Positions 10,373-56,063 of a stretch of DNA of 64,000 nucleotides are shown here, piece after piece. The stretch is from NCBI GenBank assembly GCA_037445715.1, contig JBBIJZ010000002.1, positions 30,269 to 94,268 of the forward strand. The letters are read 5' to 3'. This stretch comes from Verrucomicrobiales bacterium. Its GTDB lineage: Bacteria; Verrucomicrobiota; Verrucomicrobiia; Limisphaerales; J093. The notes under the pieces are model-generated. The model saw only the letters and a list, made by a program, of their open reading frames with translations, made no database searches and was not told the origin of the DNA. The translations under genes were made by a program, and so were the position numbers. The first letter of the stretch is position 1. Every line of letters begins with the position of its first letter.

Positions 10373-10978
10373 ATGAAGCCCCGTTCCCGTTTCCTCCTCC
10401 CGGCGGCTTTGGCGGCGCTGTTGCCCGCCTGCTCCAGTCCCAAGACCGCCTACGTCGAGCCCGGCAGTTCGCGCCTGATCACCAGCGTGGACCAGGTCAA
10501 CATTCAGGACTTCGCCCAGGCGGCGGACACAATGGTGGCCTCGCTCATTGACCACCTCATCAACCCCGGTCAACTCCGCAGCGGCGTGCCCGGCGAGCCG
10601 GCCCTGCTGGCCATCAGCCGCATCCAGAACAACACCGGCCAGCAGCTCGACACCGACCTCCTGGTGAAGAAAATCCGCGTCGCCCTGCTGCGCACCGGCA
10701 AGGTCTGGACCAGCACCACCATCGCCTTCGGCGGCCCCGAAGACCCGCTGGCCGCCGAGGAACAACAACTGCTGGGCAGGTCCGCCGCCGGGGTCAACCG
10801 CCGCCCCGACTACACCTTGTCGGGCAAAATCATTGAAGACCGGACCCGGGCGGGGAACCTCCGCCAGACAGCCTACGTTTTCCAGCTTTCGCTGACCAAA
10901 ACGCCGGAGGGCATCGCGGTGTGGGAAGACGAAAAGACCATCGTCAAGCAGGGCAGCCGGCCGGCGGTGGGTTTCTGA
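10373..10978 (+). CDS. LpoB-like (COG3417) lipoprotein
   Basis: Lipobox ALLPACSS. DFAQAADTMVASL...ALLAISRIQNNTGQQLDTDLLVKKIRVALLRTGKV parallels the E. coli LpoB core (LLVDSVNNRTNGSLN...LRNALANNGKF). Starts 3 nt after the preceding stop. Confidence 0.65.
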   Translation: MKPRSRFLLPAALAALLPACSSPKTAYVEPGSSRLITSVDQVNIQDFAQAADTMVASLIDHLINPGQLRSGVPGEPALLAISRIQNNTGQQLDTDLLVKKIRVALLRTGKVWTSTTIAFGGPEDPLAAEEQQLLGRSAAGVNRRPDYTLSGKIIEDRTRAGNLRQTAYVFQLSLTKTPEGIAVWEDEKTIVKQGSRPAVGF

Positions 10979-20246: not shown

Positions 20247-23200
20247 TCACCCGACGCGGCCCGGCTTGGCGGGTGACCGCGCAAGGCGCAGGACCATCCA
20301 ACCGGCCAGGAACAGGCCTGCCAGCAGGGCCAGTCGGCCCACGCCCGAAACCTCCGCCCGCACGGCCGCGACGCGGAGGGCGATTTTCAACTCGGCCCAC
20401 GGCTCCACCGCCAGCGGGCGGGTGAAGGTCAACACCCGGCCCTGCTCGGGCAGCGCCACCCGCAACGCCGTGGGGCTGGCCGCCGCCGCTTCCTGCTGTT
20501 GAATGAGGCGCTGGGCCAGTTTCAACGGCACCGCCTCGTCCTCGGGGGCGCCGCGCTCAAGCTGTTGCCCTGCCCGGGGAGGCGTCGCCGGCGCCGCGGC
20601 CGGGGAGGGGACCTGGCCGGCCACGCGGCTCTGACTGAGGCTCAACCCCCGGAGGGCCTGCTGCATCTTGAGGTTTTGGAGCTGGACGCGCGCGTCCTCG
20701 TTGAACGCCGCGTCGCGGCTTGAAAGTTGAAAGGCGTTCTTGAAGGCCAGCCGGGCGCGCTCGGCGTCGCCGGCCTCGAGCAGGCGGTTGCCCAGGGAGA
20801 GAAATTGTTCGGCCTGCTGATTCTGCTCGCGTTGCCGGGTCCGTTCCGCGGTCAGGTAGGCCTCCAGGTCCGGCGGGGCCACGGCGCGGGTGGCCGCCTC
20901 CTGCAATTGCAGGGTGCCGGACCAGTCCTTCAGGCGCCAGCGCTCGTGCAGGAAGACCTGCCAGGAGACGTTTTCCAGGGGCAGGTCCAGGCGCGGCCCG
21001 ACCAGCGTCAGGTCGAGCGTCTCCGGTCGCGCGCGGCCCGCCGGGCTGGTGTGGTAGAACTCGATGGTGACCGGTTCGCTGCCGCCGGCGTGTTGCTCGA
21101 GCGGGATGAGCACCTGGTCGCCGTCGTTCCAGGGCCAGACGCTGTTCTGGTTGACGAAGGCGAACCAGAAACGCGCCCCGGCCGGCAGCCGCAGGTGCAA
21201 CAGGCGCTTGTCGCCCGGAACCAGTTCGACCCGCGTGCGGGTGAGCATCCCGCCGTCGTCGGCCACGACGGATTGGAGTTCGACGCGGTTGACGCGCGCG
21301 GGCAGGAGGCTGGCGGCCTGGTGACGCTCCAGACGCACGGTCAGGCGCGCGTCCGGCTCGATGAGGCGGAAGGTGTAGTTGGCCGCCGCCGCCGGGATGT
21401 CCCGCAGCAACGCGCGCGGGATGACCTGCCATTCGGTGGGTTGCAGGCTCGGCGGCACCTCCGCCACCCGCGCCTGGAGCCGGCCGGCGGCCTGCACGGT
21501 GAGGAAGCCGCGTTGCAGATTCACCTCGAGCGCCTGCACGCCGAGGATTTCGGCCGCGGTCGCCTCCCCGGCCACGGGCAGGGTGTAGCTGACCTGAAGC
21601 AGATGCCGGCCGAGCACGCGCCGGTGCAGCTTCACTTCCCAGACGCGCGCGACGGCGTTGGTGGCGTCCTCGCGCGGGGCGAAATCGGCCACCGATTCGC
21701 CGCGGAAGCGGACGTTCTCCGCCGCGGCGGGCAGGCGCACCCGGAGGGTTTTGACGCCGGTGTTTTCGATCTCGTACTGGAGGTTGGCCTGCACCTGGAG
21801 GCGGGCGTCGCCCACGGTCACGTGCTGGAGGCTGGTGACCTGCAACCAGGCGTCCACCGATTCGAGGTCCAGCGTCAGCCGCCAGGGACTTTGCAGGAGC
21901 CGGAAGGCCAGCACGCCCCGGGGCCGCGCCCCGGCCTCGGCCGGGTCAAACGGCACCACGCCCTCGCGCGCGGCCACGCGCACCCGCAGGCCCTGCTCGG
22001 GCGCCACGAACAACTGCCCCCGCTCCCGGGCCGCCTCTCGCACCCGCAGCACGGGCACCGTCCAGCCCTGCGCCGCGCGCACGCCCGGCCCGGCCAGCGT
22101 CAGCGCAAAGGTCTGTGGTCCCAGCGTGCGGCCCTTGAGATGGAGCGTGATCACGCGGTGGGTGGCGTCGGTCCGCAGTTCCGTCCAGTGGCTCAACGCC
22201 GCGCCGCTGAGCGTCTCCACCTCCAGACCCGGTGGCAGCGAAAAGCTCAGCCGGAAAATGCCCGCCCGCGTGATGTCCACCGTCCACGTCGCCGCCAGCA
22301 GGACGCGGTCCTCGCCCAGCGAGAGGGTTTGCTGCGACTCGACCCGCACCTCGGGTTCGACCGGCGCGGCCCGCAGGCGCAACGCGGCCTCCGTGTTCGC
22401 GTACCGGAAGGCCCGGCGCACGGCCAGGCCCGGCACCGCCCCGACCAGCGGTTCGAGCACCGCGACCGGGAAATCCTCCAGGTTGATCGGCGCCAGCGGT
22501 CCGGCGTCCACCGCCTCCAACTGCACCTCGCCCCCCGTGGCCACGCCCACCACGCCCACCTCGCTGGCGGCGCCGCGCAGCCGCACCAGGCCCACGCGGG
22601 TCTCCGCGGGCAAGGTGCCGGCGGGCGATTGCGAGCGGATTTGCACCGCAAACGGCCGGGCCTGCGCGGGGCTGAGCCGGGCGCGCAACTGCCGCGTGTC
22701 CGGGTCAAACCGCCAACCCGCCAACCCCGGCGCGGTCACGTCGGTGACCGCCGCCCCCGGCGGCACGTCGAACACCAGTTCGGCCAGCTCGCCCCGGGCC
22801 GGGCGCACCTGCGCCGCGTGCAACCCTTCCACCGCCCCACTGGCCGGGACGTACACCTGCGTCCATTCCGCGTAAAAGACCGCCGCTTCGCGCCGCGGGT
22901 CGCGTTGCCGCGGCCGCCAGCCCAGCCACGTCTCGCCCACGGGCCGCAACACCAGCTCAATTACCGTGTTGGTCGCGTCCGCCGCCGAGCGCCGCTGCGC
23001 GGACACGGCCTGTTCGGCGACCACGTCCACGTCCTGGCCCGCGACGGTCAACGTGAGGCGGTTGACCAGCCCCGGCGGCACCGGCACCCGGAAGCCGCGG
23101 ACTTCGCCCTGCGGCTCGACCCGGGTTTGGTAACGGATCACGGCCTCGATCCAGCCGTTGGTCTCGGCCAGGAGCCCGCGTTGCGGCCGCTCCGGCGGGC

Positions 23201-26200
23201 CGCCCTGGACGAGGCGGGCGGCACCGGTGACCAGCTCGAACCCGGTGAGCACGCCGGGCGCTTCGAGCACGGGCAGCGTCTGGCCCGGGGCGGCCTGCCA
23301 GCGCAGCCGCACCTCACCCAGCACGTGGTCGTCCTCTGCCCGCACTTCCTGGACGATCTGCGCGGCCACGGGAGCCGCGGGGCCGGCCGCCCGGGCCGGC
23401 AGCCCCCACGCGCCGACACCCAACCCCAGACCGAGCCACCCCACCACCGCGGCCGTGACCGGGCCGGTCGCGGCACCGGGCGCCACCGGCGCGCGCCACC
23501 ACCGCCGCCACAGCGGCACCAGCACCTGGACCACCAGGAACAAGCCCACCACGCCGGCAAAGGACGCGCCACCGTCCGGTTGTCGCAAGGCCGCCCAGGC
23601 CAGTGCCGTCCAGCCCAGCGCGCCCCACACGACGACGCGCCGCGGTTGGGTGGAACCGCGGCCCACGGCCCAGGCCACCAGCGCCAGGGCGGCCGGCCAA
23701 AAACTCCACACCCGTCCCCACACCGGCACCGTCAGCGGCACGTGCAGCACTTCGGCCCGGAGCACGCCGCCGGGTGGGAGCACCGGCGCCACAAAGCGCA
23801 GCCCGGCATCTTCCGCGCCGGGCGGTGGCGTGGCGACCCACTCCCGGAGCATCTGCGCGGCCAGGAACAGGGCCAGCAAGCCCGCCGCCAGCGCGGCGAG
23901 GCGCCGGGGCGCGAACCGGCCACCGGGCGTGTCCGCCAGCCAGCGCAGCGCCAGTGCGGCCAGCAGCACCATTCCCAACAGCACCAGCCACCGGCCGGCG
24001 GTTTTCGCGCGGTCCGGTCCGGTGAAGATGCGGGCCAGCGCGGTCCAGCCGGTATGGGCGGCGACGGCCGGGGCGGGGGGCAACGTGGCGGAGCGCAGCA
24101 CCAGGCGACGGTCCCGCTCGGTCTCCAGGCGCCAATCGGCCAGCAGCACCGGGGCGGTCACCGCCGGGGTGGCCACGGTGAGTCGGCGCGGCCCGACGTT
24201 GGTGGCCGCCAGTTTGACCACCACCTCGTTGAGCGTGTTCGGGTCGCTGTGCTGCGGCAAGCGGATGAGATTGGTTGGGCCGTCGCGGACGGGCACAACC
24301 GCGTTGCTGTTGACCAGCACCGACCAGAGGGTGGTGTTGGGCGGCAGGACCAGTTGCAGATGCGGCGTGCCCTTGTTCTTCACGAAATAGCGCGCCTCGG
24401 TCACCACCTGGCCCTCGCGGGCAATCCGGGTGGTGAGCGCCGCCCGGTCCACCACCTGGCTGAGCATCTCGCCCTGGGCCAGCGGCTGAAGGGCCAGTTC
24501 GAGGTTGAAGGGCCGGGCGGTGTACCGGAAGGCGGCCAGCACCGGCGCGTCGAACAGCAGCCGGTACTCCGGCGGCAACTCGCCCGGCTCGAGCGCGACC
24601 AGGGCGGGCGAGACCTGCACCGGCCGGACCTGGAACTGGTAGGTGCTGACCACCACGGTGTAGCCCTGTTCGCTCTGCACCTCGAGCGGGCGCGCACCGG
24701 TGAAGGCCAGTTGGTCGCCCGGCGCCTTGAACGGCCGGTCATAGGTGACCAGCAACGTGTACGGACCGCTCACCGGCTGGCCGAGCTCGACCCGGTAGCC
24801 GTTGGGGGTCTGATGCGCCCCCCGGACGTGCCGGCCGGTGAACTCGACATTGGCCACCTCCGCCGGCAACTCGACCGTCCAGGCCGAGACCGGCGCGCCG
24901 CTGACCAGGTAGTTCAACACCGAACTGCCGTAGGCCACGCCCTCGCCCACCGAGAAGAGGTGGAAGGCGTCCACCTGCACCGTCTGCGGCAGCCGCTCCA
25001 CCGCCAGCGTGGCCGACCACCCGGCCTCCGTGATCCGGAACGCCGCCTGCAAGCCCGCGCGCGGTTTGGGGAAAAACGCCGTGGCCAGCTCCGTCAGGCC
25101 CGCGGTCGCCGCCGGCGTGAGCCGGAAACCCGCGTCGGCGGAGACGCCCACGTGGCCGCGGGTGGACCGGGCGCGCAACACCTCCAGGCGCGGCAGGGTC
25201 CAGCGCGGCTCGCGGAAAGCCTCGTTGCGCTCCAGTCGCAGGGTGATCAGTTGCCGGCCCAGCACCGGCGCCCCGTAAAGCACCCGCACCACCGGCTCGG
25301 CTTCGCCGGCGGGCGGCACCGTGTACTCGCTCATCCCCGCCGCCTGCACCGCGACCACGGTGAACCCGGTCGGCACCCGCACCTGGACTTCGCGCAGCGC
25401 CGCCTCGCGCACGTCCACCTCGAACTCCGCTTCGATCCCCAGCTCGGACTCGCCCAGGTAATAGGCCAGGACGGCCGACACGGCCAGCTCCGGCAGGACG
25501 TCGTCCGCCTGCAGGCGCAACCGCTGTTCGGGGCCGGCATACCGGTAGGCAAACACCGGGCGGGCCGCCGGCGGCGCCAGCGCGCGCGCGGTGTCGCTCC
25601 CCGGAAACTGTTCCGGCGAAATCTGCGCCAGGCCCGCGGCCTCGAGCACATCCAGCCGCACCGCGCCCTGCGTGGCCACGCGCAGGTGCCCGGCGAAGCG
25701 CGTGGCGCCCGCGGGCGCCAGCCGCGTCACCTCCACGGTTTGCGGGAAGGCGTCCAGCGCCTGCTCGAGGTGCACGCTCAGCGCGAAGGTGTCCTTTTGC
25801 GGGGCGTTCAACTGCACCTGCAACCGCCGGCGGCCCTCGCGGTCGGCGGGCAACACCTCCCACGACAACACCGCCCCGCCCTGCACGCGTGTGACCGCCG
25901 CCCCGCCGGCCAGCGCCAGCTCCACGCGCTGCATCTCCCCCTGCATCACGCGAAACTCCAGCGCCGCCGCCTGCCGCATCAGGCCGGGGCTGAGCGTCAC
26001 CTGCTCGAGCGCCTCGGCCGCGAAGAACAGGCGCCCCTCGGCTTCCGGCCGGCCTTCCTGCCAGGCCAGGCGCACCCGGCCATCCGGCGGCAAGTGGCTC
26101 ACAAACCCCTCGCCCCGCCGTTCGGGGCGGGCCGCGCCTGCGAAGCGAAACTGCGTGTCCGCGGGCAGGCCGGCGAGCGTGATCGGGGCCACGACCGCCG

Positions 26201-27275
26201 GCGCCACGGTGAAGTTCACCTCGCGCCAGCCGTTGGTGTGGCGCACCGCGGCGTCGAACTCGAACGCCAGCGGGAACTCACCCGCACGGTCAAATTCCGC
26301 CACGTAGGTCTCGCGCTCGAACCGCAGCCGCACGCCTTCCGGCGCCGTGAACCCGGCCAGCGCCGCTTCGCCGCCGAGCACCTCGAGCCGGCCGCCGCGG
26401 GGCAGCGGCACGCGCGCCCGCGCGGTGAGCCGGAAACGCGCCCGGTCCTCGCTCAGTTCGCCGCGCAGTTGGAAATCGCGCCAAGTAACCAGGCGCGCCT
26501 CCGGGTCGGCCGGGGCGATTTTCAACGGGAGCACGCCCGGGGCGCCCTGAAACCGGAAGGCCAGCGGCGCGGGCGCGCTCGCCGGCGCGTCCGGGCGCAG
26601 ACCCGGGGGCAGAAACCGCGGTTCGATGGGCACCAGCCCGGCCAGCCCCTCGCCCGGTTCGACCGCCAGTTCGCCCGGCGCGTCCACGCGCAGATAACCG
26701 GCCGCGAGCAGGGCCGGCTCGGTGGCGAAGGTCAGCGGCTGCACCGTGCGGGGCAGCTCCGGCACCGAGGTGACGGCCTGGATCGTGGTGGTGAATCGTT
26801 TCCGCGGCGGGTCCGCGCGGTTCAAGCGCAACACCAGTTGCCGGCCCGACGCGGTCTGGCGCACTGCCCAGTCCTCGAGGCCCTCGCCGTGGACCTCGCG
26901 CACCTCGCCCTCGCCGGCGAGCGCCAAGACCAGCTCGCGCAATTCGCCCTGCAACGCCTCGGCCTGCACCTGGACGCGCTGGCGGATTTCTTCGCGGCCG
27001 ACCTCGAGGTGTTGCTCGAAGTGGGCGCCGTACAGGGCGGGCCGTGCCGCCGCGCCCAGACCGCTCAGGTCCGCCTCGATGACCAGTCGCGCCTTCTCGC
27101 CATCAAGCTGGCCGTTGACCGTGGCTCGCCGGACCTCGACCGCGGTCGGTTCGGCGCCCCGGCCCAGCAGCGCAACGGCCAGGCCGAGCGCGCCGAGCAC
27201 GCAGCGCGGTCCGCCGGGCCGCGGGTGCGGCCGGGGGCGGGAAAGGAGCAAGGGAGTCGGCGGCAGTGTGTTCAT
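20247..27275 (-). CDS. giant polytopic envelope protein (2,342 aa), internally duplicated, no recognisable domain
   Basis: ORF 20247..27818 trimmed to ATG 27275 (MNTLPPTPLLL..., signal-like GALGLAVALLG). The upstream part of the ORF is an out-of-frame overlap with the vWA gene. A central block of about six hydrophobic helices lies at about 23385-24000. There is a C-terminal TM segment (LALLAGLFLAGWMVL). The beta-rich composition contrasts with the Arg/Gly/His-rich antisense ORF. Confidence 0.8.
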   Translation of the reverse strand: MNTLPPTPLLLSRPRPHPRPGGPRCVLGALGLAVALLGRGAEPTAVEVRRATVNGQLDGEKARLVIEADLSGLGAAARPALYGAHFEQHLEVGREEIRQRVQVQAEALQGELRELVLALAGEGEVREVHGEGLEDWAVRQTASGRQLVLRLNRADPPRKRFTTTIQAVTSVPELPRTVQPLTFATEPALLAAGYLRVDAPGELAVEPGEGLAGLVPIEPRFLPPGLRPDAPASAPAPLAFRFQGAPGVLPLKIAPADPEARLVTWRDFQLRGELSEDRARFRLTARARVPLPRGGRLEVLGGEAALAGFTAPEGVRLRFERETYVAEFDRAGEFPLAFEFDAAVRHTNGWREVNFTVAPAVVAPITLAGLPADTQFRFAGAARPERRGEGFVSHLPPDGRVRLAWQEGRPEAEGRLFFAAEALEQVTLSPGLMRQAAALEFRVMQGEMQRVELALAGGAAVTRVQGGAVLSWEVLPADREGRRRLQVQLNAPQKDTFALSVHLEQALDAFPQTVEVTRLAPAGATRFAGHLRVATQGAVRLDVLEAAGLAQISPEQFPGSDTARALAPPAARPVFAYRYAGPEQRLRLQADDVLPELAVSAVLAYYLGESELGIEAEFEVDVREAALREVQVRVPTGFTVVAVQAAGMSEYTVPPAGEAEPVVRVLYGAPVLGRQLITLRLERNEAFREPRWTLPRLEVLRARSTRGHVGVSADAGFRLTPAATAGLTELATAFFPKPRAGLQAAFRITEAGWSATLAVERLPQTVQVDAFHLFSVGEGVAYGSSVLNYLVSGAPVSAWTVELPAEVANVEFTGRHVRGAHQTPNGYRVELGQPVSGPYTLLVTYDRPFKAPGDQLAFTGARPLEVQSEQGYTVVVSTYQFQVRPVQVSPALVALEPGELPPEYRLLFDAPVLAAFRYTARPFNLELALQPLAQGEMLSQVVDRAALTTRIAREGQVVTEARYFVKNKGTPHLQLVLPPNTTLWSVLVNSNAVVPVRDGPTNLIRLPQHSDPNTLNEVVVKLAATNVGPRRLTVATPAVTAPVLLADWRLETERDRRLVLRSATLPPAPAVAAHTGWTALARIFTGPDRAKTAGRWLVLLGMVLLAALALRWLADTPGGRFAPRRLAALAAGLLALFLAAQMLREWVATPPPGAEDAGLRFVAPVLPPGGVLRAEVLHVPLTVPVWGRVWSFWPAALALVAWAVGRGSTQPRRVVVWGALGWTALAWAALRQPDGGASFAGVVGLFLVVQVLVPLWRRWWRAPVAPGAATGPVTAAVVGWLGLGLGVGAWGLPARAAGPAAPVAAQIVQEVRAEDDHVLGEVRLRWQAAPGQTLPVLEAPGVLTGFELVTGAARLVQGGPPERPQRGLLAETNGWIEAVIRYQTRVEPQGEVRGFRVPVPPGLVNRLTLTVAGQDVDVVAEQAVSAQRRSAADATNTVIELVLRPVGETWLGWRPRQRDPRREAAVFYAEWTQVYVPASGAVEGLHAAQVRPARGELAELVFDVPPGAAVTDVTAPGLAGWRFDPDTRQLRARLSPAQARPFAVQIRSQSPAGTLPAETRVGLVRLRGAASEVGVVGVATGGEVQLEAVDAGPLAPINLEDFPVAVLEPLVGAVPGLAVRRAFRYANTEAALRLRAAPVEPEVRVESQQTLSLGEDRVLLAATWTVDITRAGIFRLSFSLPPGLEVETLSGAALSHWTELRTDATHRVITLHLKGRTLGPQTFALTLAGPGVRAAQGWTVPVLRVREAARERGQLFVAPEQGLRVRVAAREGVVPFDPAEAGARPRGVLAFRLLQSPWRLTLDLESVDAWLQVTSLQHVTVGDARLQVQANLQYEIENTGVKTLRVRLPAAAENVRFRGESVADFAPREDATNAVARVWEVKLHRRVLGRHLLQVSYTLPVAGEATAAEILGVQALEVNLQRGFLTVQAAGRLQARVAEVPPSLQPTEWQVIPRALLRDIPAAAANYTFRLIEPDARLTVRLERHQAASLLPARVNRVELQSVVADDGGMLTRTRVELVPGDKRLLHLRLPAGARFWFAFVNQNSVWPWNDGDQVLIPLEQHAGGSEPVTIEFYHTSPAGRARPETLDLTLVGPRLDLPLENVSWQVFLHERWRLKDWSGTLQLQEAATRAVAPPDLEAYLTAERTRQREQNQQAEQFLSLGNRLLEAGDAERARLAFKNAFQLSSRDAAFNEDARVQLQNLKMQQALRGLSLSQSRVAGQVPSPAAAPATPPRAGQQLERGAPEDEAVPLKLAQRLIQQQEAAAASPTALRVALPEQGRVLTFTRPLAVEPWAELKIALRVAAVRAEVSGVGRLALLAGLFLAGWMVLRLARSPAKPGRVG
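23385..24000 (-). other. central six-helix membrane block of the giant protein
   Basis: Hydrophobic segments: WLVLLGMVLLAALALRWLA, LAALAAGLLALFLAAQML, VWSFWPAALALVAWAVG, VVVWGALGWTALAWAAL, FAGVVGLFLVVQVLVPLW, VTAAVVGWLGLGLGVGAWGL. Confidence 0.6.
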
Positions 27276-27291
27276 GGTCAAAAGGCCGGAT

Positions 27292-29709
27292 TCAACGCCC
27301 GGCCAGGCGGTGGGCTTGTTCGAGCATTTGGGCCAGCCGGGCCGGCCGGGGATCGGGCGCGAAGGCCTCGGGCACGCCGGCCAACAACGGTTGCAGGCGT
27401 TCGGGGGAGACGTCGCCGGCAAAGGGGCTTTGCGCCAGCCATTCGGCGAACAACGCCGCGGTCGCGGCCAGCCGCAGGGCGGGGCCGGCATCCGCAAGCT
27501 CCGGAGCCGGGCCGCGATAGTCCAGCGTCCAGGCCAGCTCGCGGTACCGGCCGGAGGCGGGCTCGCGATAGCGCACGCGGAAGGTGCCCAGGGGCCCCTG
27601 CCCGTCGGGGTGGACCTCCAGCGCGTACAGCGCGGTGCCGGTCTCGGCCGCGCCGAGCTCGGCAGCGTCCACGGTGTCGTCCCGGAACTGCTCGGCGGTG
27701 AGTTGGTGGCGCGCATAGCCGAGCTGCCGCCAGCGGAGAACGCGGGCCGGGTTGAACTCGACCTGCACCTTGACGTCGGCCGCGGCGACCTGGAGCGCGC
27801 CGGCCAGTTGCGCGGCAAAGCCGGCCGCGGCTTCGTCCGGAGTGTTGAGGAAGCCGTAGCGGCCGTCGCCGTGGCGGGTGAGCACTTCGAGCAGTTCGTC
27901 GTTGAAGTCCTCCCAGCCCACGCCGAAGGCGTCCAACGCCACGCCGCGGCGGCGGTGGTCTTCGACCAGGTGTTGCAACGAGTCCGGCATGACCTCTCCC
28001 AGGTTGGCGGCGCCGTCCGTGATCAGGATCACGCGGTTAACCCCGCCGGGCAGGAAATGTCGCAGGGCGACCTCGTAGCCCAGGCGCAGGGCGTCTTCGA
28101 GATGGGTGCCGCCCTCCGGAGTGAGGGCGGCGGCCGCTTCGAGCACCGGGCCGGCCTGCTCGCCCGACACGCCCTCGGCAAACAGCCGCGCGGTGCGGGC
28201 GAAGGTGACCACGCTGAGGCGGTCGGCGGGTTGGAGTTGTTCGGCAAGCAACCGCAACATCTCGCGGCACGTGGCCACGCGGTCGGCGCGCTCCATCGAA
28301 CCGGAGCGGTCCAGCACCAGCACGAGGTTCAAGGCGCGGCCCGGCTCGCGGCCCCGCGCGGCGGTCTGGACCCGGAAACGGACCAGCTCGCGGTGGTGAG
28401 CGAAGGGATGGCGCGCGCGGTCCCAGTGAAAGGCCAGGGGCGCACCCTGGGCCGGAGCGGGGTCGCGGTAATCGAAGGCGTTGACGAACTCCTCGACCCG
28501 CACGCCACTCGGCGGGGGCAACTGCCCGGCGTCGAGGCTGGCAGCCGCCAGGCGGAACGACACATCGGCGACGTTCAGCGAGAAGGTCGAAAACGGATTC
28601 TCGGCGGTGGCGACCTCGGGTGGGTGAACCGGCAGGGCCGGCGCAGGCGCGGCGGTGAGCGCGACCTCCCGGGCCTCCTTGCTTTCCAGCCGGAGCGCGT
28701 CCGTGGCCGGGCTTTCGGCGAGTCTTTCTTCGAACGCATCGCGTGCCAGGGTCTCCTGGGCGCGGCGGGTTTCTCCTCCTGCCCGGCCGGCGGCGGCCAC
28801 GGCGCCACCGCCCTGCACGCCCAGGTCCAGCGCAAACACATCGCCGGCCGCCGGGAGGGCGGCTTCCGGGGGCACGGGCGTGACCGACGCGGGAACTTTG
28901 GCCGGCTCTGCTTGAGCCACTTCCGGGGTGCCCGCGGCCGACCGGCCCTCCGAGCGAGCCAGGCCGTAACGCAGCATCCTGCGGAGGTCCTCGGTTCGGG
29001 GGGGTGCCGCGGCAGAAGGGGCGGCGAGATCGCGCGGCCGACCCGGAGCCGGAACCGCGGGCATCGGCGCTACGGTGGGCGCGGCGGTGGGCGCGGGTGG
29101 CGGGGCCTGGACCAACTTGCGACCGAGCGTGGGCACGCGCCGGTCGCCGGCTTCCGCTACCGTCCCGGCCGCTGCGGCGGGCGGCGGGGGCGGGGCGGCG
29201 GTTTCGGCTGCGGCCAGTTGCCGCTCCAGTTCGGCCTGCTTTTCCCGGGCACGTTGGCTGACCAGTTGGGCCTTGGCCTTGGCCCGGGAAAGGGCCGGCA
29301 ACATCAGGCCCGCCCCCAGCGCCAGGAGCAGGGTCACAACCGCCGCCAGGGCGAGCCAGTGGGTGCGCCGGGAGCCAGCCGCCGCGCGAGCGGGGGCAAA
29401 GGCGGGCGGCGAGGCGGTGTTGAACGCGGCCACCAATGCCCGGCGTCGCTCGGGGGAAAGCCGGAGCGGAGCCGGGGCGGGCGTGGCAGGGGAGTTATCC
29501 GCGCCGCTCTTGGCGTCGGCCCCGCGCAACGCCTCGCGCACCAGGGGCAGGGTGCGGGCCAGGCGGGCCAGCAGTTGGACCTGGTCCGGCCGGGCGGCCA
29601 GCTCGGCGTACACGGCGGTGGTTTCCTCGGGCGAAAGTTCGCCCAGCAACAGCGCCGTGAGCCGGGCTTCCGGGTCGGGAGCGGGAGGCGGAGGCGGAAC
29701 AGGGTTCAT
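27292..29709 (-). CDS. anti-sigma factor fused to a YfbK-like von Willebrand factor A ectodomain
   Basis: N-terminal helical anti-sigma-like segment LTALLLGELSPEETTAVYAELA. One TM (HWLALAAVVTLLLALGAGLML). Pro/Ala linker. NPFSTFSLNVADVSF...EEFVNAFDY segment. vWA domain with MIDAS DRSGS (28297-28311) and ILITDGAANLG. The start codon overlaps the sigma stop (ATGA at 29706-29709). Confidence 0.8.
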   Translation of the reverse strand: MNPVPPPPPAPDPEARLTALLLGELSPEETTAVYAELAARPDQVQLLARLARTLPLVREALRGADAKSGADNSPATPAPAPLRLSPERRRALVAAFNTASPPAFAPARAAAGSRRTHWLALAAVVTLLLALGAGLMLPALSRAKAKAQLVSQRAREKQAELERQLAAAETAAPPPPPAAAAGTVAEAGDRRVPTLGRKLVQAPPPAPTAAPTVAPMPAVPAPGRPRDLAAPSAAAPPRTEDLRRMLRYGLARSEGRSAAGTPEVAQAEPAKVPASVTPVPPEAALPAAGDVFALDLGVQGGGAVAAAGRAGGETRRAQETLARDAFEERLAESPATDALRLESKEAREVALTAAPAPALPVHPPEVATAENPFSTFSLNVADVSFRLAAASLDAGQLPPPSGVRVEEFVNAFDYRDPAPAQGAPLAFHWDRARHPFAHHRELVRFRVQTAARGREPGRALNLVLVLDRSGSMERADRVATCREMLRLLAEQLQPADRLSVVTFARTARLFAEGVSGEQAGPVLEAAAALTPEGGTHLEDALRLGYEVALRHFLPGGVNRVILITDGAANLGEVMPDSLQHLVEDHRRRGVALDAFGVGWEDFNDELLEVLTRHGDGRYGFLNTPDEAAAGFAAQLAGALQVAAADVKVQVEFNPARVLRWRQLGYARHQLTAEQFRDDTVDAAELGAAETGTALYALEVHPDGQGPLGTFRVRYREPASGRYRELAWTLDYRGPAPELADAGPALRLAATAALFAEWLAQSPFAGDVSPERLQPLLAGVPEAFAPDPRPARLAQMLEQAHRLAGR

Positions 29710-30254
29710 GACACGAGGCCGGCTTTGGCCAGTTCGGCCGCCAGGGCTTTGAGGGCATGGTGCAGGAGGTAACCCACGTGGCCCACGCTCAGGCCGGTGC
29801 GAGCGCTGATCTCCCGGTAGGAAAGGTCGTGGGCGAATTTGAGTTCGAGCAGCTCGCGGCTGCGGGGATCGAGCTTTTGCAGGCCGAGCCGAACCAGACC
29901 CACCGCCTCCCAGCGGGCGAGCAATTCATCCGGCGGCGGCCGGGGGTCCGGCGCTTCTTCCGGGGGCTGCGGGCGGCCGGCCGCGTCGGCCAGGGACACG
30001 ACCGGCCCGGCGTCCCGCCGGTGATTGAGGGCGAGGTTGTGCACGGTGCGGAAGAGCCAACGGCGGGGGTCGCGCACCTCGGCGAAGTGCGCGTGCAACC
30101 GAAGGAACGCTTCCTGGACAATCTCCTGGGCCATGTCGGGGTCGGCCAGCAGGCGCAGGGCATAGGCCAGCAACGGTGCCTCCAGCACCTCGAACCACCC
30201 CAGCAGGGCGGCGGGCGGCGGACCGGCGGAAGGAGCGGAGTCGGCCGTGGCCAT
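29706..30254 (-). CDS. ECF-type RNA polymerase sigma factor
   Basis: Region 2 (EIVQEAFLRLH, WLFRTVHNLALNHRR) and region 4 HTH (LSYREISARTGLSVGHVGYLLHHALKAL). 182 aa. Confidence 0.85.
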   Translation of the reverse strand: MATADSAPSAGPPPAALLGWFEVLEAPLLAYALRLLADPDMAQEIVQEAFLRLHAHFAEVRDPRRWLFRTVHNLALNHRRDAGPVVSLADAAGRPQPPEEAPDPRPPPDELLARWEAVGLVRLGLQKLDPRSRELLELKFAHDLSYREISARTGLSVGHVGYLLHHALKALAAELAKAGLVS

Positions 30255-30397
30255 GCCGGATCAGGTTGGCCGGGCGGACCGGGTGTCGCGCGCGGCGGTC
30301 TTGGGCTGCGCTTGCATGAGCTTCCCCCAGTATGACACGCGGCCCGGGGTTTTCTTAGGGAAAAATCGCGAGGGGAAAGCGGCACCGCTTGGGCACT

Positions 30398-30433
30398 GCG
30401 GCAAGGTAGGGTGCCGCGGCAAGGTAGGGTGCC
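30398..30433. repeat. perfect 2 x 18-bp tandem repeat gcggcaaggtagggtgcc in the sigma/korA divergent region
   Basis: Copy 1 is 30398-30415 and copy 2 is 30416-30433, with identical bases. The second copy runs into gctgcgccggcgcc, the same core as the GGTAGGGC palindromic module at 35.6 and 41.2 kb. Confidence 0.9.
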
Positions 30434-30687
30434 GCTGCGCCGGCGCCAGATGGGGTCCCCTCGCCGTCCGCGCCGCCGCGCAGCCCTCCCGCCCCCGGGG
30501 TCAGGGCCCACCCGGCTTTTCCCGCACTGGCCGCTGGATTTTGGCTTTACAGCGCGGCGCGGGCGGCGCACAAGCGGGGTCAGCGAATTGATGACGCCGA
30601 AGTCAACTAACCCCGCGCCGGCCAGGGGGCCGTGTAACCCCGGAGCGGTGTCGGGGCTCGGTGTCCGCGTAAATCGGAGTTTTCCAC

Positions 30688-41450: not shown

Positions 41451-42422
41451 ATGACCGTGGCAACCAAAGGGAACGCGCCGGGCATCGGCGCGCGTGAAAT
41501 CGCCTTGGAAACTCCCGGCGACCGGGCTACCTTCCGCGCCATGCTCGGCCGAAGTCCTGGCCAACCTGTCCTTGCCCGCCCCACTCCGGAGCGTGGCCGG
41601 CGGCGGGGTCCGTGTCGGGCCGGGGGGTTCACGCTCATCGAGTTGTTGGTGGTGCTGGCCGTGATTGCGGTGCTGGTCGGGCTGTTGCTGCCGGTGCTGA
41701 GCCGGTCGAAGGAGGAAGCCCGTAGCATCGCCTGCCGCAACCACCTCAAGCAGCTTCAGATTTGCGTCCACCTCTATGCCGTGGACCACGCGGACACCCT
41801 TCCCCCCAACAATTACGTGTACAACCTCGAGACCGAGGCGCCCGACCCGGTGGCCTTCAGTACCAACATGACCTGGTGCCCCGGCAACACCCGCCTGGAC
41901 CTGACCCCGGCCAACATCGAGCGCGGCCTGCTCTTCCCCTACAACCGCTCGACCGCCATTTACCACTGCCCCTCGGACCGCTCCTACGTCGAGACCGAGG
42001 AGGGCCGCCGCCTGCGCCGGTTGCGCACCCGCAGCTACAACATGAGCCAGGCCATCAACGGCGCCCCGGTCGAGGAGGACTATTACGGCCCGCCCGGCTT
42101 CGCCAAGGAATCCCAGATTGACCGCCCCGCCCCCACCGAGCTGTTCGTGTTTCTGGACGTGCACGAAGACGGCATCCTCGACTCCCTCTTCGGCATCCCC
42201 CCGCCGGGCTGGGAACGCTTCATGGACCTGACCTGGTGGGACCTGCCGGCGGACCGCCACAACCGCGGCTGCAATCTGTCCTTCGCCGACGGCCACGTCG
42301 AGCGCTGGCGCTGGCTGGCGCCAAAGATTTTCGTGACGCTCGGGCAGGCGCCCGCCAGCCCGGAGGAGTGGCGGGACTTCGAGCGCCTCCGCGCCCGGGT
42401 CAAACCCGAGACGCGCTTTTGA
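41451..42422 (+). CDS. prepilin-leader / H-X9-DG (DUF1559-like) protein
   Basis: Type IV pilin-like N-terminus GFTLIELLVVLAVIAVLVGLLLP. H-X9-DG motif HNRGCNLSFADGH near the C-terminus. An alternative start at ATG 41541 is possible. Confidence 0.8.
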   Translation: MTVATKGNAPGIGAREIALETPGDRATFRAMLGRSPGQPVLARPTPERGRRRGPCRAGGFTLIELLVVLAVIAVLVGLLLPVLSRSKEEARSIACRNHLKQLQICVHLYAVDHADTLPPNNYVYNLETEAPDPVAFSTNMTWCPGNTRLDLTPANIERGLLFPYNRSTAIYHCPSDRSYVETEEGRRLRRLRTRSYNMSQAINGAPVEEDYYGPPGFAKESQIDRPAPTELFVFLDVHEDGILDSLFGIPPPGWERFMDLTWWDLPADRHNRGCNLSFADGHVERWRWLAPKIFVTLGQAPASPEEWRDFERLRARVKPETRF

Positions 42423-46670: not shown

Positions 46671-49600
46671 CTACGGCACGGTCACCACGCGGTAGAAGCG
46701 ATTGCCCGCCTCGATCGGCAAGGTCACCAGGATCGTCCCCGTGGTGTTCGGATGGGTCGAACGGCGCGTCCAGGCCGCCAGGTCCGCGCTTTCCTCGACC
46801 GCATAGGTGAGGCCGATCCGGCCGGTGATCCAGAGCTGGAGTCCGGCGGGCACGCGCACCAGGCGGAGCTGGGCGGCCTCACTGCCCGGCGGCGGGGCCG
46901 TCACGGGCAGGTAGAGGTTGTCCAGGAACATCGCGTCCAGGCCGCTGGAGAAGTTGCTGTCCTTGACGTAACGCCAGGTCAGCGTGTGGGTGCCCGGGGC
47001 GAGGTTGAACAGGTAGGTTTGCCACGGCACCTCCCCGGTCCAACGCTCGATCCGGAGGCCGTCCACGTAGAATTCGGCGAAGTCCCAGTTGGCCTCGCTG
47101 CTGACGCGGAGGTCGAAGGCCGCCGCGCCGCCGCGGGATTCCACCGTGAGGCTCAGCACACTTTCCTGGCTGTCCCCGATGGCGCCCGAGCGGAGGGCGT
47201 AACGGCCGCCGGCCGCGGTGGCGGACTGCACCTGCCAGGGTTGTACCGAACCGCTCTGCCAGGGCGGCTGCCGCAGGCTGGTGGCGTTGAAGGGCGGCTC
47301 GAAGGTGTAGGTGTAGGCCAGGGGCCGGAACTGCGCGGTGAGGACGTAATTGCGGTCCATGACCAGGAACAACGGATTGGCACCCGAGGTCACCGTGCCC
47401 TGCCAGCCGGCGAAGAAGAAGCCCGGCTCCGGCAGCGCGGTCACCGCCTGGGTCGAGCCGGCCGGATACAGGCCCGCCGGTGGCGTCACCGTGCCGCCCA
47501 CCGGCGGGGTGATGTTGAGCGCGTAGTTCGCGACGCGGTCGTCGTCGAGGATGGTGAGCGTGGCCGTGCTGACGCGGCCCAGCACGGCGCCGCCCTGCGG
47601 GTTGGCCAGCAGCAGCCGCAGGGCGCGGTCCGGCTGCGCGTCGCGGTTGTCGAGCACGGGCACCGGGAAGCTTTGCTCGGTCACGCCCTCGGCAAAGGTG
47701 AGGGTGCCGGCGGCGGCCTGGTAATCCCGCCCGGCCACGGCCGTGGCGTCGGCGGTGGTGTAATCCACCAGCACCACGGTGTTGGTCGGCCCGGTCCGGC
47801 GCACGGTGATGCTGGCCGCGCCGTCGGACTCGCGCACCGACCAGTCGCTTTGGGCGAAGGCCACGGCGCTTTCGTTGTCCACGATGGTCAGAACGGCGTT
47901 GAGCCGGGCGGTCAGGGAGTAACCCGGCGGGAGGTCCGTCAGGTGCAGGTTCACCGTGAGGTCACCCTCGCCCAGGTCGTCATCGCGGATGCGCACCGGG
48001 AAGGTCTTGACCGTCTCGCCCGGCTCGAAGGTGAGGGTGCCCCGGGCCGCGTCGTAATCCTGTCCGGCAATGGCGGTGCCGTCGCTGGTGTGGTAACTGA
48101 CCTGTGCCGGCAGGGAGAGGTCACCGGCGCGGACCACGGTGATGGTGGCCACGCGGCCGTCTTCGGGCACGGTGTAGGTGGCGGCGCTGTATTGGAGCGT
48201 GCTGAGGCGGAACCGCTCATCGCCGTGGAGGCGGGCAATGCGGTTGCGCGGCAGGCCGTCCACCTCGGTGAAATCCCCGCCGATGAGCACGGCCGAGTTG
48301 GGCTGCACCACCAGCGCATACACGGTGTCGTTGGCGCCGGTGCCCACGTCGAAGACCGTGTCGAGCGTGCCGTCCGGGTTGAGCCGCGCCACGCGGCCGC
48401 GGTCTTGCCCGTCGTATTGAGTAAAGGCGCCGCCGATCAGAACCTTGCCATCCGCCGCCAGACCCACGGCGTGAACGGTGCCGTTGGCGCCGGAAAGCGG
48501 GACGAAGGTGTCATCGAGCCCGCCGTCGGCCAGGAGGCGGGCGATGCCGCCGCGCGGCTGGCTGGCGACGCGGCCAAATTCGCCGGCGATGAGGATGCGG
48601 CCATCCGGCTGGAGGGCCAGGGCACGGACCGGTTTGTCGGGACCGCCGCCGGTGTTGAAGGTGCCGTCCGGGCGGCCGTCCGCCTCGAGGCGGGCCAGGT
48701 AGGGCCGGGACTGGTTGGCGGCGGTGGTGAAGGCGCCGGCGACCAGGATGCGGCCGTCGGGCTGGACGGCCAGGGCGTACACGTTGCCGTTGAACTGCGG
48801 CGTGAAGCTGGTGTCCAGCGTGCCGTCGGCCCGGAGGCGGGCCAGGCGGGCGCGCGGCGTGTCGTTGAGGGTGTTGAATTCCCCGCCCACGAGCAAGGTG
48901 CCGGAAGGCTCGACCGCCACAGCGCGCACCGGGCCATCCGCGCCGTTGCCGATGTTGAAATCCTGGTCCGCCGCGCCGTCGGCGTTGAGGCGGATGAGCC
49001 GGTTGCGGCTCAGGGTGTTGAACAGCGTGAAGTCGCCGCCGACGCCGATGCGGCCGTCGGCCTGCACGGCCAGCCCGCGGACGGTGTTGTTGAAGCCCTC
49101 GCCGGGGTTGAAGAAGGTGTCGAGGTACCCGTCATCGTGCACCCGGGCAAGGCGGGCGAGGGTGACCTGGTCCAGCTCGGTGAACCGGCCGCCGAGGAGG
49201 ATGCGCCCGTCCGGTTGCAGGGCCAGGGTCAGCACCGTGTCGTTCGCGCCCTGGCCGGGGTTGAACTCGAAGTCCACGCTGCCGGGGGTTTCGTTGTCCA
49301 CGATGGTCACGGTGGCGTTGGTGTTGGCTCCCAGAATGACGGTGCCCGGCAGGCCGCCGCCGGCGGTCAAGCGCGCGTTGGTGAGGCTGAGGTAAAAGAC
49401 CTCGTTGCCCTCGCCCTGCACGTCGTCGAGGATGCGCAGGGTGAAGGTCCGGTTGGTGTCACCGGGCTGGAGGACCACCACGCCGGTGCCGTCCTGGGCC
49501 CGGAGGAGGTCCGCGCCGAGGAAATTCACCGTGCCGCGGGCACCCACATAATCCTGGGTGGCGCGCGCGGTGCCGTCGGCGGTCTCGAAGTCCACGCTCA

Positions 49601-55265: not shown

Positions 55266-55353
55266 GACGAATTCAGTTGCAGCGACTGTAGGTAACGCAA
55301 AAGGGCGTCGCAAGGGCATTCGCCCCCGGGACCGGCGAACCCGAAAAAGCAGG

Positions 55354-56018: not shown

Positions 56019-56063
56019 GGATCAGACGGATCGGTCGGATCAGTCGGATCGGCCGGATCATCA
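56019..56063. repeat. 5 x 9-bp tandem repeat GGATCNNNC (five GATC sites at 9-bp spacing)
   Basis: ggatcagac (56019-56027), ggatcggtc, ggatcagtc, ggatcggcc, ggatcatca (56055-56063). The last unit contains the subtilase stop codon. The array ends 23 nt upstream of the coaE ATG. Confidence 0.9.

What the first reader, a model, noticed from the sequence alone, without database searches (positions are those of the whole stretch)
20247..30254. Self-contained operon of ECF sigma, anti-sigma-vWA fusion and a 2,342-aa polytopic giant of unknown function
Three co-directional minus-strand genes form a tight unit.

Seen in the sequence:
- The sigma stop and anti-sigma start share ATGA at 29706-29709.
- Only 16 nt separate the anti-sigma stop (27292) from the giant's ATG (27275).
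- The unit is bounded by a convergent TPR gene on one side and the divergent korAB operon on the other.
- The sigma factor has clear regions 2 and 4.
- Its partner has an anti-sigma-like N-terminus, one TM helix, and a periplasmic vWA domain with an intact MIDAS motif (DRSGS).
- The third gene takes 7 kb and has no domain I can name.
- No MoxR or DUF58 gene of the classical vWA/Bat-type clusters lies nearby.

Inference: this is a sigma-controlled envelope module. The vWA ectodomain may sense either the state of the giant protein or a ligand bound by it. I regard this as the best candidate in the window for an undescribed system.
Basis: partly seen in the sequence, partly recalled or inferred. 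Interest (0 to 1): 0.8.

Follow-up and report, generated by a model that had tools for sequence, protein, structure and literature searches.

The report
Sigma, vWA anti-sigma and giant operon
A three-gene unit (a stress-type sigma factor, its membrane anti-sigma partner with a metal-site vWA sensor domain, and a 2,342-residue membrane protein of unknown function) is real and is kept together across hundreds of Verrucomicrobiota species, so it is a good but untested candidate for an undescribed cell-envelope sensing system.

Summary
Three minus-strand genes sit at the stated coordinates: an ECF sigma (29706-30254), an anti-sigma/vWA/YfbK_C fusion (27292-29709) and a 2,342-aa giant (20247-27275).

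New findings:
- The giant is an internal tandem duplication of a ~720-aa all-beta module.
- Its predicted topology is signal peptide, periplasmic arm A, about 6 TM helices, periplasmic arm B, a TPR-like helical region and a C-terminal TM anchor.
- It matches no Pfam, NCBIfam, PADLOC or PDB sequence family. Fold hits are generic beta-sandwich arrays.
- It defines a large family: 551 clusters at E<=1e-30. All named members and top genome hits are Verrucomicrobiota.
- The order sigma, anti-sigma, giant is kept in all 52 loci with enough upstream DNA, and in 4 of 5 relatives at 24-27% identity. Flanking genes differ.
- A conserved ECF-type promoter lies upstream of the sigma gene in 44 loci. It is the only match in the 64-kb window, which argues for an autoregulated, self-contained operon.
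- The sigma/anti-sigma architecture matches the published, uncharacterised group ECF289. I found no description of the giant or of the trio in the searchable literature.

The function, and any contact between vWA and the giant, remain inference.

The parts
30331..30362 (-). Predicted ECF-type autoregulated promoter (TTCCCTAAGAAAACCCCGGGCCGCGTGTCATA). The -35-like element is CTAAGA, followed by a 16-nt spacer and the -10-like element GTCA.
   Evidence: The motif TAA[G/T/C][A/G]A-N14-[C/G/T]GTC lies upstream of the sigma gene in 44 of 52 loci at fixed geometry. A PWM built from these instances scores 30.4 bits here, and this is the only hit of at least 10 bits in the 64-kb window. The exact consensus match is at 30334-30358.
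30261..30317 (-). Short leader uORF of 18 codons (MQAQPKTAARDTRSARPT). It ends 6 nt before the sigma ATG. Its significance is uncertain.
   Evidence: Comparable uORFs of 11-26 codons occur in roughly 25 of 44 loci, but the peptide sequence is not conserved.
29706..30254 (-). ECF (group IV) sigma factor, 182 aa.
   Evidence: Pfam Sigma70_r2 (1.2e-10) and Sigma70_r4_2 (3.1e-12). TIGR02937 scores 65.8 bits against a cutoff of 42.9. Orthologues are 51-92% identical in 52 loci.
29440..29709 (-). Cytoplasmic N-terminal anti-sigma domain of the 805-aa protein (aa 1 to about 90). It is of the non-zinc type.
   Evidence: The ATGA overlap with the sigma stop is present here and in 34 of 52 loci. The conserved motif is ARLTALLLGELSPEE. 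zf-HC2 is the top hit in 9 of 10 orthologues but is sub-threshold, and weak precomputed hits occur in L087 and L088.
29299..29355 (-). Single transmembrane helix of the anti-sigma factor (aa 119-137).
   Evidence: Hydropathy 2.54 over 19 residues.
28612..29298 (-). Pro/Ala-rich periplasmic linker (aa 138-366). This region is hypervariable in length among orthologues.
   Evidence: Whole-protein length ranges from 796 to 1,808 aa among orthologues. Some orthologues carry PATR repeats here.
27295..28611 (-). Periplasmic sensor module: vWF_A N-domain (aa 367-444), VWA with MIDAS (aa 461-618) and YfbK_C/DUF3520 (aa 638-805).
   Evidence: Pfam PF12450 6.7e-16, PF00092 9.1e-13 and PF12034 4.7e-28. 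The MIDAS residues D467, S469, S471, T535 and D565 are invariant in 52 sequences. This module is 60-92% identical across loci.
27156..27275 (-). N-terminal signal-peptide-like segment of the giant (aa 1-40).
   Evidence: An Arg-rich n-region is followed by a hydrophobic helix at aa 24-36 in the AF2 model.
24120..27038 (-). Giant, periplasmic arm A (aa ~80-1052). It is an all-beta chain of sandwich domains. The first ~250 aa are a partial extra copy of the start of the module.
   Evidence: AF2 mean pLDDT 81. hhalign finds internal repeats aa 70-250 ~ 405-590 and 320-1060 ~ 1360-2100. BLASTP of the two halves gives 28% identity, E 4e-45.
23403..24011 (-). Giant, transmembrane cluster (aa ~1089-1291, about six helices). 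This is the least conserved part of the protein.
   Evidence: Hydropathy and reading of the sequence under the positive-inside rule. AF2 places helices at 1089-1115 and 1123-1147. Conservation profile.
20886..23366 (-). Giant, periplasmic arm B (aa ~1304-2130). It is an all-beta chain of about seven sandwich domains and is paralogous to arm A.
   Evidence: AF2 mean pLDDT 84. Repeat evidence.
20481..20867 (-). Giant, helical TPR-like region (aa ~2137-2265) with the invariant motif AFNEDARVQL.
   Evidence: AF2 helices at model residues 848-976. Invariant columns. Weak TPR hits.
20289..20345 (-). Giant, C-terminal transmembrane anchor (aa 2311-2329), followed by a basic cytoplasmic tail.

Best explanation
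This is a self-contained, autoregulated ECF signalling operon of Verrucomicrobiota whose output is its own third gene.

Shown or strongly supported by comparison:
- The sigma gene is preceded by a conserved ECF-type promoter.
- Sigma and anti-sigma are translationally coupled.
- The giant follows after 16 nt with no promoter of its own, so one transcript most likely carries all three genes.
- The anti-sigma is a single-pass membrane protein. It has a cytoplasmic sigma-binding N-terminus, a long variable spacer and a periplasmic vWA(MIDAS)-YfbK_C head.
- The giant is an inner-membrane protein. It displays two paralogous ~720-1,000-aa chains of beta-sandwich domains in the periplasm, joined by about six TM helices and closed by a TPR-like region and a C-terminal anchor.

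Inferred:
- In the resting state the anti-sigma holds the sigma at the membrane.
- A change at the vWA head frees the sigma. Most simply this would be loss or gain of a MIDAS-mediated contact with an acidic residue of the giant's highly conserved ectodomain, or of something the giant binds.
- The freed sigma then raises transcription of the whole operon, and so of the giant. The giant would be both the effector and the feedback partner, as an envelope scaffold or sensor arm long enough to reach the peptidoglycan or outer membrane.

My rough probabilities are:

| Step | Probability |
|---|---|
| Co-transcribed, sigma-autoregulated unit | ~0.85 |
| Topology of the giant as described | ~0.8 |
| Giant is the main regulated output | ~0.7 |
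| vWA head contacts the giant directly | ~0.35 |
For: Conservation of the trio:
- Sigma, anti-sigma/vWA and giant keep the same order and strand in all 52 loci with enough upstream DNA, while the flanking genes differ.
- The same trio appears in 4 of 5 relatives that are only 24-27% identical.

Promoter and coupling:
- The promoter consensus TCGTCTAAGAAA-N13-GTGTCAT is present upstream of sigma in 44 loci.
- It is essentially the only PWM hit per 13-23 kb locus, and the only one in the 64-kb window.
- In L052, where a gap separates anti-sigma and giant, a second copy lies directly before the giant.
- The ATGA overlap is kept in 34 of 52 loci.

Conserved features:
- The MIDAS residues are invariant.
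- The ectodomains of the giant are its most conserved parts and the TM cluster is the least conserved.

Structure of the giant:
- AF2 models have mean pLDDT 84 and 81 and are all-beta, with TM helices where hydropathy predicts them.
- The charged loops follow the positive-inside rule, which places both arms in the periplasm (reading of the sequence).
- One homologue carries a LysM insert in arm A, which fits a location next to peptidoglycan.
Against: - There are no expression or interaction data. The promoter is a motif inference only.
- The vWA-giant contact could not be modelled.
- One distant homologue (P0175, on an 8.8-Mb contig) has no sigma or vWA gene within 9 kb upstream.
- Most loci with a long gap before the giant show no second promoter copy.
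- The anti-sigma domain assignment is sub-threshold.
- Inter-domain geometry in the AF2 models is uncertain (pTM 0.38-0.42).
Confidence: 0.6

Rival explanations
1. The vWA head senses an external cue that has nothing to do with the giant, for example a divalent metal at the MIDAS site or a foreign protein or polysaccharide ligand. The giant is only the downstream effector, a protective or adhesive envelope structure.
For: - ECF289 was split from the old group ECF20, together with the metal-stress groups ECF281, ECF290 and ECF291 (CnrH) (PMC7826278).
- MIDAS sites bind divalent cations (established knowledge of vWA domains).
- The linker that carries the vWA head varies from about 230 to more than 1,000 aa and sometimes contains PATR repeats. 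That suggests a head reaching outward rather than docking on a fixed partner.
Against: - The paper singles out ECF289 as the one group of the four without a heavy-metal resistance gene in its neighbourhood.
- No metal-efflux or resistance genes are linked in any locus examined.
- Strict co-inheritance of the vWA anti-sigma with the giant down to 24% identity is what a physical partnership would predict.
Confidence: 0.25
2. The anti-sigma's vWA head and the giant form a stable integrin-like or Bat-like structural complex in the envelope. Sigma sequestration is then a secondary checkpoint that reports whether assembly succeeded, rather than a sensor of the environment.
For: - The best Foldseek hits for both arms are integrin alpha leg domains (E 5e-9 and 2e-8) and ribophorin I/Ost1 (E 8e-9).
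- Integrins pair such legs with a MIDAS vWA-like subunit (established knowledge).
- Bat clusters pair vWA membrane proteins with TPR proteins and large TM-anchored proteins (established knowledge).
- The giant ends in a TPR-like region followed by a TM helix.
Against: - TM-scores are only 0.1-0.34 with RMSD of 20-40 Å, so the similarity amounts to 'tandem beta-sandwiches' and nothing more specific.
- There is no beta-propeller, and no BatD, MoxR or DUF58.
- No complex could be modelled here.
Confidence: 0.12
3. The three genes are merely neighbours, and the giant is functionally unrelated to the sigma/anti-sigma pair.
For: One distant homologue of the giant stands without the pair.
Against: - The trio is retained in 52 of 52 close loci and 4 of 5 distant loci, with unrelated flanks.
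- The intergenic gap is 16 nt, and gaps in other loci are mostly short.
- A second promoter copy lies before the giant in L052.
Confidence: 0.03

Closest known systems
ECF sigma group ECF289 (ECF classification 2.0, Casas-Pastor et al. 2021, PMC7826278)
   Same: [quoted passage not shown] That is exactly the architecture found here.
   Different: - ECF289 is defined only by computation and has no assigned signal or regulon.
- The passages of the paper I could read do not mention a giant +2 gene.
- Whether this sigma falls inside the ECF289 clade could not be tested, because neither the group HMMs nor the supplement are held.
Cell-surface signalling (FecI/FecR/FecA type)
   Same: An ECF sigma is paired with a single-pass anti-sigma or sigma regulator. 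The periplasmic domain of that regulator reads the state of a large envelope protein encoded at the same locus.
   Different: - The sensor here is vWA-YfbK_C, not a FecR domain.
- The partner is a polytopic inner-membrane beta-sandwich protein, not a TonB-dependent outer-membrane transducer.
- The contact is hypothetical.
Bat (Bacteroides aerotolerance) / MoxR-vWA clusters
   Same: Membrane-anchored vWA proteins are encoded next to TPR-containing proteins and large TM-anchored periplasmic proteins of unknown function.
   Different: - There is no MoxR ATPase, no DUF58 and no BatD or BatA_N Pfam match.
- The unit is regulated by a dedicated sigma, which the Bat clusters lack.
Integrin alpha/beta heterodimer (and ribophorin I/Ost1)
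   Same: - Both arms of the giant give their best fold matches to integrin alpha thigh/calf legs and to ribophorin I.
- Integrins combine such legs with a MIDAS-bearing vWA-like head, and both subunits are membrane-anchored.
   Different: - TM-scores are very low (0.1-0.34).
- There is no beta-propeller and no sequence similarity.
- This is a resemblance of fold class, not evidence of homology or of a heterodimer.
Bacterial alpha-2-macroglobulins (ECAM/YfhM)
   Same: They are very large, inner-membrane-anchored, periplasmic chains of beta-sandwich domains. Weak Foldseek hits to CD109, A2M and C5 were found.
   Different: - There is no thioester CxEQ motif, and the protein has a single Cys, in the signal peptide.
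- There are no A2M or MG Pfam hits.
- The giant is polytopic and internally duplicated.

Membership tests
ECF (group IV) sigma-70 factors | Regions 2 and 4 only, about 180-200 aa, matching the ECF superfamily model | tested here: met
   Sigma70_r2 and Sigma70_r4_2 match. TIGR02937 scores 65.8 bits against a cutoff of 42.9. The protein is 182 aa.
ECF289-type sigma/anti-sigma pair | Anti-sigma at +1 containing DUF3520 fused to a von Willebrand domain | tested here: met
   PF12450, PF00092 and PF12034 match the gene that overlaps the sigma stop. Definition taken from PMC7826278.
ECF289-type sigma/anti-sigma pair | The sigma protein falls in the ECF289 clade or matches its group HMM | not testable with these tools
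   ECF Hub HMMs are not available, and no supplementary files are held for the paper.
Class I anti-sigma domain (zf-HC2 / ZAS type) | N-terminal helical anti-sigma domain recognised by PF13490 | tested here: inconclusive
   PF13490 is the top hit in 9 of 10 orthologue N-termini at the same position, but at 13-19.6 bits against a cutoff of 22.2. The window copy has E 0.092. Weak precomputed hits occur in L087 and L088.
Class I anti-sigma domain (zf-HC2 / ZAS type) | HxxxCxxC zinc-binding motif | tested here: not met
   There is no Cys or His in aa 1-110 of the window protein. If it is an anti-sigma domain, it is a non-zinc one.
vWA domain with functional MIDAS | DxSxS ... T ... D metal-ion-dependent adhesion site | tested here: met
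   D467-R-S469-G-S471, T535 and D565 are invariant in 52 orthologues.
Bat / MoxR-vWA aerotolerance-type cluster | Linked MoxR AAA+ ATPase, DUF58 protein and BatD-type protein | tested here: not met
   None of the 21 flanking ORFs scanned between about 6.8 and 60 kb of the window hit these models, and they are absent from the related loci. No BatD hit appears in 20 giants.
Alpha-2-macroglobulin / thioester proteins | CxEQ thioester motif and A2M/MG domain models | tested here: not met
   No CxEQ motif and only one Cys in the whole protein. No Pfam hits. The Foldseek probability to CD109 is 0.28-0.47.
Integrin alpha-like | FG-GAP beta-propeller head plus thigh/calf legs | tested here: not met
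   No FG-GAP or propeller hit. The leg similarity is limited to fold class, with TM-scores of 0.1-0.17.
FecIR-type cell-surface signalling | FecR domain in the regulator and a TonB-dependent transducer partner | tested here: not met
   No FecR or TonB_dep_Rec hits in the three proteins.
Known anti-phage defence systems | Match to any PADLOC model | tested here: not met
   No hit for any of the three proteins.

The most novel reading that the evidence does not exclude
The anti-sigma's MIDAS-bearing vWA head and the giant's two beta-sandwich arms form a bacterial, integrin-like outside-in receptor. The arms would span the periplasm to the peptidoglycan or outer membrane. Mechanical change or ligand binding at the arms would be read through the MIDAS contact, and that would release the sigma. 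This would be a new class of envelope-state sensor that couples a giant structural protein directly to transcription, and it appears confined to Verrucomicrobiota.
Probability: 0.15. Interest if true: 0.8.

Novelty: new variant of a known kind. Interest (0 to 1): 0.55.

Why it matters
ECF sigma/anti-sigma pairs are the third major mode of bacterial signalling, yet most groups have no known input or output. This unit offers both in one place:
- a sigma whose only nearby predicted target is its own operon;
- a sensor domain (vWA-YfbK_C) whose role in any anti-sigma factor is untested;
- a conserved 2,300-aa protein family, with hundreds of sequence clusters and no annotation, as the likely output and partner.

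Verrucomicrobiota are abundant in soil and freshwater and are poorly studied genetically. A defined promoter motif, clear topology predictions and specific MIDAS residues make the system directly testable in cultured relatives, for example Chthoniobacter or Pedosphaera if they carry it. If the vWA-giant contact is real, it would be a new way for bacteria to monitor the envelope.

Tried and rejected
- **Sequence families for the giant.** Pfam, NCBIfam and PADLOC scans, including 20 diverse family members scanned one by one, found only weak TPR hits and a single LysM insert.
- **Solved structures by sequence.** A profile search of PDB sequences found only marginal hits to designed TPR proteins.
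- **Fold search.** Foldseek of both AF2 models against the PDB gave significant E-values but TM-scores of 0.1-0.34. I treat these as fold class only.
- **Alpha-2-macroglobulin idea.** Rejected: no thioester motif and no MG models.
- **Bat/MoxR idea.** Rejected: no MoxR, DUF58 or BatD.
- **Split-gene (single-module) versions.** The ~1,100-aa hits are ORFs cut by contig ends. For example, P0158 starts at base 47 of a 5-kb contig.
- **Extra genes between anti-sigma and giant.** They are lineage-specific. L041 has a REP-associated transposase, L042 has two small secreted ORFs and L003 has a 162-aa ORF. None belongs to the core.
- **Sigma-70 promoters, terminators, Rfam and tandem repeats.** The scans gave nothing relevant inside the unit.
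- **Literature.** Searches for DUF3520, ECF289, YfbK, 'VWA domain' with anti-sigma, and giant genes in Verrucomicrobia returned only the ECF classification paper as relevant.
- **Considered but not run.** A mirror-tree or rate-covariation test between the vWA head and the giant. Shared phylogeny would confound it, so it would not be decisive.
Full report
**1. Observation.**
The three minus-strand ORFs exist exactly as described:

| Gene | Coordinates | Length |
|---|---|---|
| Sigma | 29706-30254 | 182 aa |
| Anti-sigma/vWA | 27292-29709 | 805 aa |
| Giant | 20247-27275 | 2,342 aa |

The region is 72-75% G+C, so long shadow ORFs are expected. One is present, a 2,324-aa plus-strand ORF. Third-position G+C is 0.91, 0.85 and 0.84 in the minus-strand frames, which identifies those as the coding frames. 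The ATGA overlap between sigma and anti-sigma, and the 16-nt gap before the giant's ATG, were read directly. The flanks are a convergent TPR gene and a divergent korA/korB-like pair. None of the 21 flanking ORFs scanned between about 6.8 and 60 kb of the window hit a MoxR or DUF58 model.

**2. The two regulators.**
- The sigma has regions 2 and 4 and passes the ECF superfamily model.
- The 805-aa protein has a conserved N-terminus (ARLTALLLGELSPEE...), one TM helix at aa 119-137 and a Pro/Ala-rich spacer.
- After the spacer come vWF_A (PF12450), VWA and YfbK_C/DUF3520, all above their Pfam cutoffs.
- The N-terminus gives zf-HC2 as top hit in 9 of 10 orthologues. Every one of these hits is below the gathering score. 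Two distant orthologues carry weak precomputed zf-HC2 hits.
- There are no Cys or His ligands. I therefore read it as a non-zinc class-I-like anti-sigma domain, supported mainly by position and translational coupling. The ATGA overlap is kept in 34 of 52 loci.
- The MIDAS residues D467, S469, S471, T535 and D565 are invariant in 52 orthologues.
- The spacer is the variable part. Orthologues range from 796 to 1,808 aa, and some carry PATR repeats.

**3. The giant.**
- It has no Pfam, NCBIfam or PADLOC match. This holds for the window protein and for 20 diverse relatives scanned one by one. It also has no profile match to PDB sequences.
- It is an internal duplication. Residues 357-1051 align with 1399-2116 at 28% identity, E 4e-45.
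- Profile-profile windows show the collinear repeat 320-1060 ~ 1360-2100, and an extra partial copy 70-250 ~ 405-590.
- Hydropathy and the positive-inside rule give this order: signal-like N-terminus, arm A outside, about six TM helices (aa 1089-1291), arm B outside, C-terminal TM (2311-2329), basic tail inside.
- AF2 with a 52-sequence alignment gives confident all-beta models for both halves, with mean pLDDT 84 and 81. Helices appear exactly at the predicted TM segments. A long helical, TPR-like region (aa ~2137-2265) carries the invariant motif AFNEDARVQL.
- pTM is low (0.38-0.42), so the arrangement of the domains relative to one another is unknown.
- Foldseek against the PDB returns integrin alpha legs, ribophorin I/Ost1 and, more weakly, C5, A2M and CD109. 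TM-scores are 0.1-0.34 and RMSD is 20-40 Å. This identifies a fold class (tandem beta-sandwiches), not a family.
- There is no thioester motif, and the only Cys lies in the signal peptide.
- The ectodomains are the best conserved parts and the TM cluster is the least conserved. The function therefore most likely resides in the periplasm.

**4. Distribution and synteny.**
- The word-indexed search found at least 427 clusters. The 120 listed are nearly all full-length, about 2,350 aa and about 50% identical. All are annotated as hypothetical, and the named sources are Verrucomicrobia, Pedosphaera and Chthoniobacter.
- The exhaustive HMMER search with arm B found 551 representatives at E<=1e-30 and 2,476 at E<=1e-3. 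Among the best 150, most are double-module proteins of 2,000-2,450 aa, with identity down to 24%. The shorter ones are consistent with truncated ORFs.
- In GTDB species genomes, at least 428 stretches encode a relative. The 80 best are mostly labelled Verrucomicrobiota. A few MAG records carry other labels (Candidatus Sulfotelmatobacter, Candidatus Acidoferrum, Chitinophaga pinensis, Bifidobacteriaceae, Akkermansia muciniphila), which I suspect are mislabelled.
- I mapped the window's sigma, anti-sigma N-terminus, vWA head and both arms onto 83 loci. Every one of the 52 loci with enough upstream DNA has the order sigma, anti-sigma/vWA, giant on one strand. The loci without a sigma hit are those cut by contig or locus ends.
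- The genes flanking the trio differ between loci.
- Of five relatives at 24-27% identity, four keep the trio. One, on an 8.8-Mb contig, has toxin-antitoxin genes upstream instead.
- Where a gap separates anti-sigma and giant, it holds lineage-specific inserts.
- Apparent half-size homologues are ORFs truncated by contig ends.

**5. Promoter.**
- K-mer enrichment in the 250 nt upstream of the sigma genes revealed a two-part motif with the consensus TCGTCTAAGAAA-N13-GTGTCAT. Read as an ECF promoter it is CTAAGA, 16 nt, GTCA. It keeps the same geometry in 44 loci.
- The window copy is at 30334-30358, about 80 nt upstream of the sigma ATG.
- On the window alone this is not significant. With up to 2 mismatches, 1.4 matches are expected by chance. 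The weight comes from its recurrence at the same place in diverged genomes.
- A PWM built from the instances finds, at 14 bits or more, only the site upstream of sigma in each 13-23 kb locus. The exceptions are a second site directly before the giant in L052 and one weak intragenic hit in L053. It finds a single site of 10 bits or more in the whole 64-kb window.
- The PWM is circular for the training sites. The absence of other hits is still informative.
- This is the signature of an autoregulated ECF sigma whose local regulon is its own operon.

**6. Mechanism.**
- Shown or strongly supported:
  - a co-directional, tightly packed, deeply co-inherited operon with a conserved ECF-type promoter;
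  - a single-pass anti-sigma with a periplasmic MIDAS vWA-YfbK_C head on a variable spacer;
  - a giant inner-membrane protein with two paralogous periplasmic beta-sandwich arms.
- Inferred:
  - the anti-sigma sequesters the sigma;
  - a change at the vWA head releases it;
  - the operon, and thus the giant, is induced.
- The most economical ligand for the MIDAS site is an acidic residue of the giant's conserved ectodomain or TPR-like region. That would make the giant both output and feedback partner. I put this sub-claim at about 0.35.
- The main rival is an external ligand or metal sensed independently of the giant.
- A single LysM insert in arm A of one homologue hints at proximity to peptidoglycan.

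**7. Comparison with what is known.**
- The sigma/anti-sigma architecture matches the published description of ECF289. [quoted passage not shown]
- Clade membership of the sigma could not be tested.
- The system works most like cell-surface signalling of the FecIR type, or like envelope-stress ECF systems. It meets none of the defining features of FecIR systems, Bat/MoxR clusters, alpha-2-macroglobulins or integrins.
- I found no paper describing the giant family or the trio. The library is incomplete, so this is absence of evidence only.

**8. Verdict.**
This is a real, conserved and well-delimited three-gene module. It is a new variant of a known kind: a catalogued but uncharacterised ECF pair, joined to a previously unrecognised giant partner family. 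Function is unknown, but the system is now precisely testable. Interest 0.55.

Noticed in passing
window 46671-55496 (-), with 56061-59777 (-) next to it: A second, unrelated giant ORF of 2,941 aa. It has six Calx-beta domains, DUF5122 propeller repeats, a PKD domain and a weak Peptidase_M66 hit. It lies beside a 1,238-aa subtilase.
   Followed up: partly
window 30261-30317 (-): An 18-codon uORF lies between the predicted ECF promoter and the sigma ATG, and ends 6 nt before that ATG. uORFs of 11-26 codons sit at the same place in roughly 25 of 44 related loci. The peptide is not conserved, so a regulatory role is uncertain.
   Followed up: partly
window 30398-30435: A perfect 18-bp tandem repeat (GCGGCAAGGTAGGGTGCC, 2.1 copies) lies about 40 nt upstream of the promoter's -35 element, in the divergent sigma/korA intergenic region. 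It could be an operator or a chance repeat.
   Followed up: no
window 29260-29300 (-), anti-sigma aa ~137-150, and orthologues: The anti-sigma TM helix is followed by LPALS(K/R)AKxKAQ. From my own knowledge, this is the juxtamembrane motif of pilin-like (N_methyl/DUF1559) proteins of Verrucomicrobia and Planctomycetes. The G|FTLIE cleavage site is absent, and Pfam N_methyl gave no hit.
   Followed up: partly
protein P0122, aa ~312-360 (homologue of the giant): One family member carries a LysM peptidoglycan-binding domain inserted in arm A (Pfam E 3.8e-14).
   Followed up: partly
L041 4548-5900 and inside its giant: A REP-associated tyrosine-transposase-like ORF and REP-like repeats are inserted between anti-sigma and giant. 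A REP-derived in-frame insert (…RNAEFHSAVSPTF…) also lies in the giant's linker after the TM cluster.
   Followed up: no
loci L027, L043, L050, L052, L054, L056, L057, L065, L076, L083: A sub-clade has giants about 150-200 aa shorter at the N-terminus (2,128-2,271 aa), so part of the extra N-terminal copy of the module is missing or diverged. Several of these loci also lack the ATGA overlap between sigma and anti-sigma.
   Followed up: no
window 10373-10978 (+) and 41451-42422 (+): An LpoB-like lipoprotein (peptidoglycan-synthase activator family, E 4.9e-20) and a pilin-like N_methyl/DUF1559 protein lie elsewhere in the window.
   Followed up: no
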